From a phage: a stretch of 64,000 bases of DNA. The notes under the pieces were generated by a model that did no database searches, was not told the DNA's origin, and saw only the letters and a list, made by a program, of their open reading frames with translations. Shown here piece after piece: positions 4,208 through 40,641 of this stretch. The stretch lies in sequence record PZ179883.1; one strand, 5' to 3'. The position numbers and the translations under genes are program-made. Numbering within the stretch: the first letter of the stretch is position 1; the number at the start of each line of letters is the position of its first letter.

Positions 4208-5223
4208 TGTGTTGCCTCTACATATAACTGATTTGCATATTGAATAAGTGCTTCGCGATCAGAATCAGTGATGTCTGGAATTGCATTAATGTATTCTTCC
4301 ATCAACGTCTGAAGAGATTGAACTTCCACTTCTTCGTTATCATCTGATTCGACAGAGTTATCAATCTTTGACACAACTCGTAATGAATGCACAACTTTTT
4401 CTAGTTCAGATTCGAACTTCGTTAGATTTTTGTCTACCTCAGTTACTATAACACGTACTGATAGATTTGTAAAATCTTTATAGTCAATTTTTCCCTTAAA
4501 TGGATATTGAATTCGACGATGCCAGGTAGTGTTGTTTGGAATAAATTCCATTCGTTCTGTTTCTGTATCAAACATCCAGAATCCACGAGGGTCATTCTCG
4601 TCACCTGCAGTTAGTGTCCATGGTGTCCCAATATATCTGACGTTAGCAGCCTCAGAGATAGTATGGAAGTGACCAGACCACACCTCTTTATAAGTCTTAA
4701 GGAAATCAGGTTCAAGACCGTGAGATTTCATTCCTTTATAAAAATAAAATCCATTCAGCTCCCAGTGACCGACACAAAAAGAAGCAGATGAAGTTTTGAT
4801 GTGTTCAAGAATTTCACCAGTATTTTCTTCACACATCCAAGGAATTAAATCAATCAAGCATCCGTCAAAATCTACTGTAGTAGGCTTATCATATACTTTA
4901 ACATTAGGATATTTAGCCAAAAGCTCAGTAGAAGCATTTGGATGCATTACATTTTTATAGTGGAGATCGTGATTTCCTACAATAGTATGTAATGTGATTC
5001 CAACGTCATCAAGCATTTGAACTATTTCACGAGCAAACTCCATAGTTTTATGCGTGATTGCTTTTCGCACATCAAAAATATCACCATATTGAATCCATGT
5101 AGTAATTCCATTTTTCTTAGAATATTCTATCGCTTGTTTAATTCCATCAATTTGAATACCGCGAATCCATTCATCATCAGCTTTAACGCCTAAATGCCAA
5201 TCACCTAAATTTAAAATTTTCAT
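4204..5223 (-). CDS. 47: recombination endonuclease subunit gp47 (Mre11/SbcD-like phosphoesterase)
   Basis: 339 aa; calcineurin-like motifs GDWHLG, GDIFD, GNHD; ATG 5221-5223 verified. Confidence 0.9.
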   Translation of the reverse strand: MKILNLGDWHLGVKADDEWIRGIQIDGIKQAIEYSKKNGITTWIQYGDIFDVRKAITHKTMEFAREIVQMLDDVGITLHTIVGNHDLHYKNVMHPNASTELLAKYPNVKVYDKPTTVDFDGCLIDLIPWMCEENTGEILEHIKTSSASFCVGHWELNGFYFYKGMKSHGLEPDFLKTYKEVWSGHFHTISEAANVRYIGTPWTLTAGDENDPRGFWMFDTETERMEFIPNNTTWHRRIQYPFKGKIDYKDFTNLSVRVIVTEVDKNLTKFESELEKVVHSLRVVSKIDNSVESDDNEEVEVQSLQTLMEEYINAIPDITDSDREALIQYANQLYVEATQ

Positions 5224-38966: not shown

Positions 38967-39042
38967 TGGTCGAGGCAGTAGGGATCGAACCTACGACCTA
39001 GGACTTAGAAGGTCCTTGCTCTTCCTTCTGAGCTATGCCCCG
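38967..39042 (-). tRNA. tRNA-Arg (anticodon TCT), CCA encoded
   Basis: Manual fold: 7 bp acceptor, T-loop TTCGATC, anticodon loop CTTCTAA. Confidence 0.85.
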
Positions 39043-39046
39043 TAAT

Positions 39047-39128
39047 TGGGGTGACCGATGGGAGTCGAACCCATGACTACGAGAATCACAATCACAATCT
39101 CGAGTTCTACCAACTGAACTACGGCCAC
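39047..39128 (-). tRNA. tRNA-His-like (GTG) with 13-nt anticodon loop; possible pseudo-tRNA
   Basis: Acceptor, D-arm, T-arm and discriminator C resemble tRNA-His; anticodon stem CGAGA/TCTCG encloses TTGTGATTGTGAT. Confidence 0.55.
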
Positions 39129-39242
39129 ATTAATACCTACTCCAACAATCAAGATGTCTTCACACGAAATTAAGAGAAGAGTGATCAGTTCAACCCCTAT
39201 AATCGCGTCAAGTAGATATTAATGTGACAGTTGTCACAAATT

Positions 39243-39317
39243 TGGCGGACGTGATAGGATTCGAACCTATAACCAATCGCTTAACAGGCGATCGCTCTGC
39301 CATTGAGCTACACATCC
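39243..39317 (-). tRNA. tRNA-Asn (anticodon GTT), CCA encoded
   Basis: Manual fold: acceptor GGATGTG/CACGTCC, anticodon loop CTGTTAA, T-loop TTCGAAT. Confidence 0.85.
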
Positions 39318-39321
39318 AAAT

Positions 39322-39408
39322 TGGTGGGGAGTGGTGGAGTCGAACCACCCGAGTCGCAATGACAATGGATTTACAGTCCACACCGCTACCTCTACGGGAT
39401 AACTCCCC
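39322..39408 (-). tRNA. tRNA-Tyr (anticodon GTA), long variable arm, CCA encoded
   Basis: Manual fold: anticodon loop CTGTAAA, T-arm GGTGG-TTCGACT-CCACC. Confidence 0.8.
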
Positions 39409-39417
39409 AAATTAATT

Positions 39418-39492
39418 TGGTGGCCCTGGGTGGAATTGAACCACCATCTGGCGATTATGAGTCGCTTGCTTGAACCTTCCAGCTACAGGGCC
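39418..39492 (-). tRNA. tRNA with CAT anticodon (Ile2-type as in T4, or Met)
   Basis: Manual fold: acceptor GGCCCTG/CAGGGCC, anticodon loop CTCATAA. Confidence 0.75.
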
Positions 39493-39493
39493 T

Positions 39494-39569
39494 TGGTGCT
39501 GATTGACGGAATCGAACCGCCGACCTTCTCATTACAAGTGAGTTGCTCTACCTACTGAGCTAAATCAGC
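39494..39569 (-). tRNA. tRNA-Thr (anticodon TGT), CCA encoded
   Basis: Manual fold: acceptor GCTGATT/AATCAGC, anticodon loop CTTGTAA. Confidence 0.85.
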
Positions 39570-39574
39570 AAAAC

Positions 39575-39664
39575 TGGCGGAGGCGATAGGATTTGAACCT
39601 ATGAGTCGCCGGAGCGACTGCCGGTTTTCAAGACCGGTGCATTAAACCACTCTGCCACGCCTCC
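39575..39664 (-). tRNA. tRNA-Ser (anticodon TGA), long variable arm, CCA encoded
   Basis: Manual fold: anticodon arm CCGGT-CTTGAAA-ACCGG, T-loop TTCAAAT. Confidence 0.85.
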
Positions 39665-39666
39665 AG

Positions 39667-39740
39667 TCTCCGTGGCAGGATTTGAACCTACGACATTCTG
39701 CTCCCAAAGCAGACGCTCTACCAAACTGAGCTACACGGAG
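39667..39740 (-). tRNA. tRNA-Pro (anticodon TGG), CCA not encoded
   Basis: Manual fold: acceptor CTCCGTG/CACGGAG, anticodon loop TTTGGGA. Confidence 0.85.
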
Positions 39741-39750
39741 TAAATTAAAT

Positions 39751-39824
<74 letters not shown>

Positions 39825-39829
39825 AAATT

Positions 39830-39916
39830 TGGTGCGAGAAGTGGGACTCGAACCCACAAGGAAATCATTCCGCAGCATTTTAAGTGCTGTGCCTTTACCA
39901 ATTTGACCATTCTCGC
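39830..39916 (-). tRNA. tRNA-Leu (anticodon TAA), long variable arm, CCA encoded
   Basis: Manual fold: acceptor GCGAGAA/TTCTCGC, anticodon loop CTTAAAA. Confidence 0.85.
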
Positions 39917-39922
39917 TCTATA

Positions 39923-40531
39923 TTATTTATTACGTGAAAAAGATTGTTCTATCAATTCTGGACACTTTCGTTCTATCCATTTTCTAGCTTTTTGTGGGCT
40001 TATACCTATTATTTTAGCAGCTTTACTAACCCATCCAAATTTAGAATAATCGATTTTAACTAATTCTTCGTAAATTTCATCAGTTAAAATCTTTTCATTA
40101 ATATTTACCAGTAAATGATATAATTTATTATCATTAGCAATTTTAATGAATCTTTTATAGTTTCCGCCTTTACTTAAACCTAATGAAGTAATTGCAGATG
40201 ATATAGTAGCCGAATTTAATAATGCGTTTAAAATTTCTTCATCACTAACATTATAACGCTTTTTATTATTTTTAATATTTTTACCAGCAAAAGTATCAGT
40301 TTGCGAATGGCAATTTGGACATAATAATCTTAAATTTGATTTAAGATGATTTTTGTTATTTCCATCAATATGGTCTAATTGCAGAACAATATGCTTATTT
40401 TGCCATTTTGAAATTTTACAAATTGCACACTCATATGGAAAAATATTTTCTTTTATTATTTTGTCTTTCAGCTTTCCTGTACTAAAATTTGGATGTTTTC
40501 CTTCAAAAATTTCAGCTAATTTAGTATCCAT
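39923..40531 (-). CDS. HNH homing endonuclease-like protein
   Basis: HNH motif LQLDHIDGNNKNH...LLCPNCHSQTD; 202 aa from ATG 40529-40531 (track start 40555 is TTG); stop abuts tRNA-Leu. Confidence 0.7.
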   Translation of the reverse strand: MDTKLAEIFEGKHPNFSTGKLKDKIIKENIFPYECAICKISKWQNKHIVLQLDHIDGNNKNHLKSNLRLLCPNCHSQTDTFAGKNIKNNKKRYNVSDEEILNALLNSATISSAITSLGLSKGGNYKRFIKIANDNKLYHLLVNINEKILTDEIYEELVKIDYSKFGWVSKAAKIIGISPQKARKWIERKCPELIEQSFSRNK

Positions 40532-40641
40532 AATATAATTCCCAATTATTAACAAAGGCTCTCTAACAAGAACCCTTGATGATAGAGGGTATTAATCAGT
40601 GCGATATGAGTTAATAATAACAAATAATTCTTAAAGCATAT

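What the first reader, a model, noticed from the sequence alone, without database searches (positions are those of the whole stretch)
39923..40555. HNH homing endonuclease gene abutting the 5' edge of the tRNA cluster
A 202-210 aa protein with a clear HNH motif ends 6 nt before tRNA-Leu. T4-type phages carry free-standing homing endonucleases in this region (segB in T4 is GIY-YIG), so this looks like a different endonuclease family occupying the equivalent niche. Its insertion may explain the missing tRNA-Gln.
Basis: partly seen in the sequence, partly recalled or inferred. Interest (0 to 1): 0.5.

Follow-up and report, generated by a model that had tools for sequence, protein, structure and literature searches.

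The report
HNH homing endonuclease replacing phage tRNA-Gln
A selfish-type HNH nuclease gene sits in the tRNA operon of this T4-like phage exactly where its relatives carry the glutamine tRNA gene; the gene is already annotated in many phage genomes, so this is an ordinary homing-endonuclease polymorphism with unusually clean boundaries.

Summary
On the minus strand, 40531..39923 encodes a 202-aa protein (210 aa from an unlikely TTG). Its stop lies 6 nt before tRNA-Leu(UAA). It has an intact zinc-bound HNH core and C-terminal helix-turn-helix-like modules. The window is a Tequatrovirus (T-even) genome.

In gene-less relatives, tRNA-Gln occupies exactly this slot. In gene-carrying phages a 621-bp cassette replaces 67 bp, leaving only the first 9 nt of tRNA-Gln (TGGGAATTA). 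64 phage records carry the cassette and 446 keep tRNA.2-Gln-Leu. The 5' junction is identical in all 60 carrier records listed; both junctions were checked base by base in 8.

Carrier status is unlinked to flanking SNP haplotypes. The ORF is intact and under purifying selection. It is the most AT-rich stretch of the window.

Relatives of 58-68% identity sit at the same syntenic place in metagenomic T4-like contigs, one just after an intact tRNA-Gln. In 75 of 80 viral-contig loci, relatives lie inside tRNA arrays. The closest named relative is T5 F-TflIV (35% identity), also in a tRNA region.

Verdict: a free-standing HNH homing endonuclease gene, a new member of a known kind. It is not a positional equivalent of segB, with which it co-occurs in some phages. 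Cleavage and homing remain untested.

The parts
39923..40531 (-). HNH endonuclease ORF, 202 aa including the TAA stop. An in-frame TTG at 40555 would add 8 residues but is probably not the start.
40298..40429 (-). Catalytic HNH (His-Me finger) core, residues 35-78: C35xxC38, D53-H54, N66, C71PNC74-H75.
39947..40243 (-). C-terminal helical modules (residues ~97-195), inferred to be the DNA-binding region; they look helix-turn-helix-like.
   Evidence: Sub-threshold Pfam HTH_29, P22_Cro and HTH_17 matches at residues 172-200. Confident helices in the model. Low-scoring, non-significant structural matches to homeodomain and HTH proteins.
40536..40544 (-). 9-nt remnant of the 5' end of tRNA-Gln (TGGGAATTA). 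It lies directly before TATT-ATG of the endonuclease gene, and its GGG is the only Shine-Dalgarno-like element.
   Evidence: Alignment with gene-less ZN18, YUEEL01 and T4.
39917..39922 (-). 6-nt spacer TATAGA between the stop codon and tRNA-Leu. Other carriers have TATAGC; AGC is also the last bases before tRNA-Leu in gene-less phages, so it is possibly a 3' remnant of tRNA-Gln.
39830..39916 (-). tRNA-Leu(UAA), intact. It is the first tRNA of the cluster in this phage.
40614..40638 (-). T4 middle-promoter-like site: MotA-box-like TGCTTTA, a 12-nt spacer, then TATTAT. It follows the tRNA.2 stop directly and is identical in T4.
   Evidence: Read from the sequence. A 'promoter' feature is annotated at the corresponding place in phage Lutter. 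The match to the middle-promoter consensus rests on my own knowledge of that consensus. The sigma-70-only scan does not list this site.
40553..40578 (-). Leader hairpin with an 11-bp stem (CAAGGGTTCTT-GTTA-GAGAGCCTTTG), present in both carrier and gene-less phages. Nearly all variation falls in the loop or the loop-closing pair; the stem is essentially invariant.
38967..39916 (-). tRNA cluster Leu, Gly, Pro, Ser, Thr, Met/Ile(CAU), Tyr, Asn, His, Arg. It is presumed to be co-transcribed downstream of the endonuclease gene.
   Evidence: annotation of relatives

Best explanation
This is a functional free-standing HNH homing endonuclease gene of the T5 F-TflIV type, embedded as the first cistron of the T-even tRNA operon. 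A single ancestral event put a 621-bp cassette in place of 67 bp of tRNA-Gln, leaving a 9-nt 5' stub and perhaps 2-3 nt at the 3' end. The gene is probably transcribed from the middle-type promoter that normally drives the tRNA precursor. Its message would end where RNase P cuts the 5' end of tRNA-Leu, 6 nt after the stop codon. Inferred mechanism: in mixed infections the enzyme nicks or cleaves the gene-less allele, and recombinational repair copies the cassette in, converting 'Gln' genomes to 'HNH' genomes. The flanks are indistinguishable between the two allele types, so the recognition site must include sequence that exists only in gene-less genomes. That means the tRNA-Gln body or one of its junctions, most plausibly the Gln 3' end / Leu 5' end junction. 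This would also explain self-immunity. Shown here: gene, motif, fold, exact boundaries, polymorphism, decoupling from flanks, purifying selection and family context. Inferred: nuclease activity, target site, homing and mode of expression.
For: HNH identity: PHROG HNH families at 6e-124 and 2e-29; invariant catalytic and zinc residues; a model with pLDDT 89.7 whose N-terminal domain matches HNH nucleases. Replacement: gene-less ZN18, YUEEL01, T4, ECO07P4, T2, wV7, PP01 and pSs-1 carry 67 bp of tRNA-Gln where 8 carriers have 621 bp, with identical breakpoints. Polymorphism: 64 records carry the cassette and 446 have the intact tRNA.2-Gln-Leu allele. The 5' junction is one ungapped piece in all 60 carrier records listed, apart from BYEP02's upstream promoter duplication. 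Spread across backgrounds: gene-less ECO07P4 is 99.6% identical to the window in the flanks while carrier ACG-C40 is 97.9%. Mean pairwise divergence in the nearest 100-200 nt is the same within carriers, within non-carriers and between them, and SNP haplotypes are shared across both classes. Carriers have two different upstream genes, and occur with or without an endonuclease gene at the segB position. Function retained: 8 of 8 ORFs are intact, with 15 synonymous versus 4 non-synonymous variable sites. Foreign composition: 25.6% GC against a window mean of 35.0%, essentially the lowest 609-nt stretch. Family context: 68% and 58% identical relatives lie at the same syntenic site in metagenomic T4-like contigs, one 14 nt after an intact tRNA-Gln. 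75 of 80 viral-contig loci with relatives contain tRNAs within 2.5 kb; in 68 of these the tRNAs are on the same strand as the gene. In 28 of 80 the ORF ends within 30 nt of a downstream tRNA, 10 of them tRNA-Leu(UAA). T5 F-TflIV is 35% identical over 170 aligned columns (E=2e-22) and starts 24 nt after a tRNA; it is cited as a site-specific endonuclease in PMC2330249 and PMC5714182.
Confidence: 0.7

Rival explanations
1. The gene is a retained, phage-beneficial nuclease rather than an actively homing element. It might stimulate recombination or amplification within the tRNA cluster, or exclude markers of competitors, as reported for SegB. Its spread would then reflect selection plus ordinary T-even recombination.
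For: Strong purifying selection. Relatives of 58-68% identity sit at the same locus in divergent T4-like phages, suggesting long residence. SegB was recently reported to promote amplification of the tRNA/anti-defence locus (PMC13096335, abstract and text). HNH genes in tRNA arrays have been proposed to diversify tRNA repertoires (PMC6409571).
Against: Only about 1 in 8 records with this locus carry it. It costs the phage a tRNA gene. It is a compositional outlier. This patchy presence or absence with a fixed junction is the classic signature of a selfish element. The two roles are not mutually exclusive.
Confidence: 0.2
2. The gene is a catalytically dead or non-specific relic whose C-terminal helix-turn-helix modules now act as a DNA-binding regulator of the tRNA operon.
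For: About half of the protein is helical and HTH-like. It lies directly after the operon promoter.
Against: All catalytic and zinc-binding residues are intact and invariant across the family. Non-synonymous changes are rare over the whole ORF, including the HNH core.
Confidence: 0.05
3. The tRNA-Gln loss and the HNH gene are unrelated events: an older deletion of tRNA-Gln followed later by insertion of the gene into the empty site.
For: In metagenomic locus L005 the 68% relative coexists with an intact tRNA-Gln. So the gene does not require loss of tRNA-Gln.
Against: No clear 'empty' allele was seen: 446 records have tRNA-Gln and 64 have the cassette. About 28 further records gave only partial matches to the gene-less allele; the few listed are other genera, and the rest were not inspected. 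An intermediate, if it existed, is not evident among the records examined.
Confidence: 0.05

Closest known systems
F-TflIV (hegA, T5.075) of coliphage T5
   Same: HNH core with CxxC...CxxC. 35% identity over 170 aligned columns (E=2e-22), including the C-terminal 'GW...A..LG.S' helix-turn-helix-like segment. It is encoded inside the phage tRNA gene region on the tRNA strand, starting 24 nt after tRNA-Ile2. Several GenBank records already label the window's gene 'H-N-H endonuclease F-TflIV'.
   Different: It belongs to a different phage family (Demerecviridae), is 227 aa with an N-terminal extension, and lacks the middle helical module (a 23-residue gap). It does not replace a tRNA. Its activity was shown biochemically (Akulenko 2004, cited in PMC2330249); this protein's activity was not.
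SegB of phage T4 (GIY-YIG free-standing homing endonuclease in the tRNA cluster)
   Same: A free-standing endonuclease gene inside the same T-even tRNA operon. Its stop codon lies 5 nt before a tRNA gene, tRNA-Arg. It cleaves within tRNA genes of gene-less relatives and drives preferential inheritance of the tRNA region (PMC2330249).
   Different: It has an unrelated catalytic fold (GIY-YIG; for the BP32 protein at the segB position). It sits at a different position, between tRNA-Ile/Tyr and tRNA-Arg. An endonuclease gene at that position co-occurs with the HNH gene in BP32, G2133 and Pu-Krd-SF1, so the two are not alternatives for one niche.
T4 MobA-E free-standing HNH endonucleases
   Same: Same broad His-Me finger group 1 in the published classification, which also lists F-TflIV (PMC5714182). 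They are free-standing and found in T-even phages.
   Different: I made no direct sequence comparison here. The window protein forms its own PHROG, 14736. The Mob genes lie next to protein-coding targets, not tRNA genes (PMC2988022).
HNH genes inside tRNA arrays of mycobacteriophages and mycobacteria
   Same: The literature describes HNH genes interspersed in tRNA gene clusters and proposes that they move or diversify tRNA sets (PMC6409571 and PMC6582537).
   Different: Those reports are qualitative. Neither the exact replacement of a tRNA nor the position-by-position pattern seen here was described in what I read.

Membership tests
HNH / His-Me finger endonuclease superfamily | Catalytic His in the first beta strand (DH), a conserved Asn, and a final metal-ligand His/Asn in the helix. 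| tested here: met
   D53-H54, N66 and N73/H75 are invariant or nearly invariant in a 38-sequence alignment.
HNH / His-Me finger endonuclease superfamily | Beta-beta-alpha-metal fold. | tested here: met
HNH / His-Me finger endonuclease superfamily | Match to Pfam PF01844 above the gathering score. | tested here: not met
   17.2 bits against a cut-off of 21.4 (E=0.0057). Several close homologues do carry a precomputed PF01844 hit, and PHROG HNH profiles match strongly.
Free-standing homing endonuclease gene | Presence/absence polymorphism at one fixed locus among close relatives, outside any intron or intein. | tested here: met
   64 records carry the cassette and 446 do not. The 5' junction is identical in the 60 carriers listed, and both junctions are identical in the 8 compared. 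No intron family was found by Rfam.
Free-standing homing endonuclease gene | Distribution discordant with the flanking sequence phylogeny. | tested here: met
   Flanking SNP haplotypes and neighbouring gene variants are shared between carriers and non-carriers.
Free-standing homing endonuclease gene | Site-specific cleavage or nicking of the gene-less allele. | not testable with these tools
   Requires biochemistry.
Free-standing homing endonuclease gene | Endonuclease-dependent non-reciprocal transfer in mixed infection. | not testable with these tools
   Requires phage crosses.
F-TflIV-like clade (T5 hegA) | Significant full-length similarity and the same HNH plus C-terminal helix-turn-helix-like architecture. 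| tested here: met
   BLASTP gives 35% identity over 170 aligned columns, E=2e-22, with one internal gap.
F-TflIV-like clade (T5 hegA) | Location in a tRNA gene region on the tRNA strand. | tested here: met
   T5 hegA. 75 of 80 relatives' loci contain tRNAs within 2.5 kb, 68 of them on the same strand as the gene.
SegB / GIY-YIG family | GIY-YIG catalytic domain. | tested here: not met
   The window protein has no GIY-YIG match, whereas the BP32 protein at the segB position does.

The most novel reading that the evidence does not exclude
The window's gene may represent an HNH clade specialised on tRNA genes as homing sites across many unrelated phage lineages. Its members would insert at the 5' boundary of a tRNA gene, ride on the tRNA precursor transcript, and be released by RNase P. 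In doing so they would delete, displace or shuffle individual tRNA genes, here tRNA-Gln. That would make them a main driver of turnover in the phage tRNA repertoires now known to counter bacterial anticodon nucleases.
Probability: 0.3. Interest if true: 0.6.

Novelty: new member of a known kind. Interest (0 to 1): 0.35.

Why it matters
The locus offers a very clean natural experiment. Two alleles (67 bp of tRNA-Gln versus a 621-bp endonuclease cassette) share indistinguishable flanks, so the recognition site is confined by logic to a short, defined sequence. It can be mapped with one PCR fragment and one purified protein.

It also shows that a homing endonuclease can cost a phage a tRNA gene. 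Phage tRNA sets are now viewed as counter-defence against bacterial tRNA-cleaving immune systems, so elements that add, remove or amplify tRNA genes affect host range.

The family-wide association with tRNA arrays (75 of 80 loci) gives a quantitative footing to an association that the literature mentions only qualitatively.

Tried and rejected
- **Sequence search of solved structures** gave nothing meaningful (best E=0.39).
- **An intermediate with both the HNH gene and tRNA-Gln in Tequatrovirus:** BYEP02 has 77 extra bases, but they are a tandem duplication of the promoter/leader, not a tRNA.
- **A co-conversion haplotype linked to the cassette:** none was found. Divergence within carriers, within non-carriers and between them is equal next to the junctions.
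- **A group I intron or other known RNA after the L005 homologue:** no Rfam match at gathering thresholds.
- **RNA structure sequestering the start codon:** the predicted pairing is weak (z=-1.9; 8 of 200 shuffles fold as well). I do not rely on it.
- **Simple promoter/terminator scan:** it found no more sigma-70-type sites than shuffled sequence and no terminator between the gene and the tRNAs.
- **Literature searches for this specific gene:** none found.
- **An isolate phage carrying the 68% homologue:** none is in the collection.
- **Direct similarity between the T2 ORF that sits where tRNA-Thr lies and the window protein:** absent by BLASTP. The only link is a weak shared PHROG.

Full report
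**1. What is there**

The window is a Tequatrovirus (T-even) genome segment. A 3.5-kb query around the finding matches 1,165 phage records, the best at 99% identity.

On the minus strand an ORF runs from 40555 (TTG) or, much more likely, 40531 (ATG) to the TAA at 39925-39923. The PHROG profile and all close homologues begin at the ATG methionine, so the product is 202 aa. tRNA-Leu(UAA) starts at 39916, 6 nt after the stop.

The tRNA cluster continues Gly, Pro, Ser, Thr, Met/Ile(CAU), Tyr, Asn, His, Arg down to 38967. Neither ARAGORN over all 64 kb nor Rfam over the locus finds a tRNA-Gln.

**2. The protein**

- **Family matches.** Pfam HNH matches only below threshold (17.2 vs 21.4 bits). PHROG HNH families match at 6e-124 (full length) and 2e-29.
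- **Conserved residues.** In an alignment with 37 homologues the invariant columns are C35, C38, W43, H54, G57, N66, L67, C71, P72, N73, C74, H75 and T78, with D53 nearly invariant. This is the zinc-bound HNH signature.
- **Homologues.** PDB sequence search found nothing. The closest named protein is T5 F-TflIV (hegA): 35% identity over 170 aligned columns, E=2e-22.

**3. The replacement**

Gene-less relatives (ZN18, YUEEL01, T4, ECO07P4, T2, wV7, PP01, pSs-1) have tRNA-Gln between the tRNA.2 ORF and tRNA-Leu. Alignment shows identity up to and including the first 9 nt of tRNA-Gln (TGGGAATTA, window 40544-40536). The window then continues TATT-ATG, whereas relatives continue with the rest of the tRNA.

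On the other side, identity resumes at tRNA-Leu +1. In some carriers it resumes 2-3 nt earlier, at AGC. Between fixed anchors, all 8 carriers examined have 621 bp and all 8 non-carriers have 67 bp. So the cassette substitutes for nearly the whole tRNA-Gln. This is a replacement, not an insertion beside the tRNA.

**4. Distribution**

- tblastn finds 64 records with a copy at least 95% identical, each with a single match, and nothing between those and roughly 35% full-length relatives.
- The same number, 64, contain the gene plus both flanks as one place.
- 446 records contain the uninterrupted tRNA.2-Gln-Leu allele.
- The 5' junction is one ungapped piece in all 60 carrier records listed. The only oddity is BYEP02, which has a 77-bp tandem duplication of the promoter/leader.
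- These counts are of database records and include RefSeq/GenBank duplicates.

**5. Signs of mobility and function**

Carrier status does not follow the flanks. Gene-less ECO07P4 is 99.6% identical to the window outside the cassette, while carrier ACG-C40 is 97.9%. In aligned flanks of 7 carriers and 8 non-carriers, mean pairwise divergence in the nearest 100-200 nt is the same within and between classes (about 1-3%). Individual SNP haplotypes occur in both classes.

Carriers also differ in their surroundings:
- the gene upstream is either the 288-nt tRNA.2 or a T2-like 513-516-nt ORF (in MLF4 and phiD1);
- the downstream cluster is of either T4 type or T2 type;
- an endonuclease gene at the segB position is present in some and absent in others. 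Only the BP32 protein was scanned, and it is GIY-YIG.

The ORF is intact in 8 of 8 copies, with 15 synonymous versus 4 non-synonymous variable sites, which indicates purifying selection. At 25.6% GC it is essentially the most AT-rich 609-nt stretch of the window, whose mean is 35.0%.

Together these are the expected signatures of a live, horizontally spreading element with a single origin. The very high general recombination of T-even phages could produce the decoupling on its own.

**6. Wider family**

Three metagenomic T4-like contigs carry relatives of 68%, 58% and 58% identity at the same syntenic place: after gp3, dNMP kinase, 57A, 57B and the tRNA.2-4 homologues, at the head of the tRNA array. 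In L005 the gene starts 14 nt after an intact tRNA-Gln. Three nt after its stop comes GCGAGACCAAGCTGGTAACG, which resembles the first ~25 nt of tRNA-Leu. This suggests an ancestral Gln-HNH-Leu order, with different neighbours lost in different lineages; that reading is an inference.

Among the 80 best loci recovered from IMG/VR with the family alignment:
- 75 contain tRNA genes within 2.5 kb, and in 68 of these the tRNAs are on the same strand as the gene. For scale, about 9% of positions in this window lie that close to a tRNA.
- In 28 the ORF ends within 30 nt of, or slightly overlaps, the 5' end of a downstream tRNA, 10 of them tRNA-Leu(UAA).
- In 36 a tRNA ends within 100 nt upstream.

T5 hegA starts 24 nt after tRNA-Ile2, and T4 segB ends 5 nt before tRNA-Arg. 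The literature mentions HNH genes in tRNA clusters of mycobacteriophages and mycobacteria only qualitatively (PMC6409571, PMC6582537). The abutment may reflect operon compaction rather than the insertion point.

**7. Expression (inferred)**

Directly after the tRNA.2 stop lies TGCTTTA-12 nt-TATTAT (40638-40614). It is identical in T4 and is annotated as a promoter in phage Lutter. By my knowledge of the consensus it fits a T4 MotA-dependent middle promoter.

A conserved 11-bp leader hairpin follows (40578-40553). No terminator-like site separates the gene from the tRNAs. The gene would therefore be the first cistron of the tRNA precursor, with its 3' end made by RNase P at tRNA-Leu. The only Shine-Dalgarno-like element is the GGG of the tRNA-Gln stub, 9 nt before the ATG. 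Weak translation signals are common for T4 endonuclease genes (PMC2988022).

**8. Mechanism and target**

The best-supported reading is a free-standing homing endonuclease. The flanks are the same in both allele types, so a site lying wholly in the flanks would also be cut in the carrier. The recognition site must therefore include sequence unique to gene-less genomes, namely the tRNA-Gln body or its junctions. Its deletion then provides self-immunity. Activity, strand specificity and homing are untested.

**9.

**10. Novelty**

The gene is already annotated as an HNH or F-TflIV-like endonuclease in many GenBank records. I found no paper on it or on the tRNA-Gln replacement. It is a new, uncharacterised member of a known kind, and its interest is moderate.

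Noticed in passing
window 39047-39128 (- strand): The tRNA-His gene carries a 6-nt tandem duplication (GATTGT GATTGT) in the anticodon loop, giving a 13-nt loop with two GUG triplets. That is why ARAGORN calls it 'tRNA-???'. None of the 344 phage records with this tRNA shows the duplication (best full-length match 76 nt, 92.7%). It is either a private mutation that probably disables the tRNA or a sequencing error.
   Followed up: yes
window 39129-39242: A ~115-nt spacer between tRNA-Asn and tRNA-His is 100% identical in ECO07P4 and wV7 (alignment A4). It has no Rfam match and contains a short hairpin (TGTGACAACTGTCACA). It might be a small stable RNA or a processing element, comparable to T4 rnaC/rnaD, which lie next to tRNA-Arg.
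   Followed up: partly
L096 (phage T2) 3580-4045: T2 has ORFs in two overlapping frames between tRNA-Ser and tRNA-Met, where relatives have tRNA-Thr. The 133-aa ORF ends 8 nt before tRNA-Met and matches phrog_16521 (E=4e-44), the PHROG that the C-terminal half of the window's HNH protein hits weakly (E=2e-4). It may be a decayed endonuclease gene that replaced tRNA-Thr, a possible second ORF-for-tRNA swap in this cluster.
   Followed up: partly
L090 (BP32) 4377-5042; L091 (G2133) 4274-4939; L092 (Pu-Krd-SF1) 4378-5043: These three phages carry both the HNH gene and a second endonuclease gene at the segB position in the same tRNA cluster. The BP32 protein was scanned and is GIY-YIG. So one tRNA operon can host two unrelated homing endonuclease genes.
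   Followed up: yes
L005 4605-5009: After the 68%-identical HNH gene comes a sequence resembling the first ~25 nt of tRNA-Leu. It is followed by about 400 nt of GC-rich non-coding DNA with no Rfam match at gathering thresholds, and then tRNA-Met. A T-arm-like GGTTCGAGTCC lies further on at about 5270, where ARAGORN calls no tRNA.
   Followed up: partly
L004 (BYEP02) about 607-683: A 77-bp tandem duplication covers the promoter and leader hairpin region just upstream of the HNH gene. The spacing between several downstream tRNAs is also unusual. This could be real or an assembly artefact.
   Followed up: partly
L089 (T4) 2659-2731 versus L002 (ZN18) 2915-2987: Gene-less phages carry two tRNA-Gln alleles that differ by several changes in the anticodon stem which keep it paired (T4, T2 and wV7 type versus ZN18, ECO07P4, PP01 and pSs-1 type). 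If the endonuclease recognises this part of the tRNA gene, one allele could be resistant.
   Followed up: no
window 39923-40531: The endonuclease gene is essentially the lowest-GC 609-nt stretch in the whole 64-kb window: 25.6% against a mean of 35.0% (sd 3.2%).
   Followed up: yes
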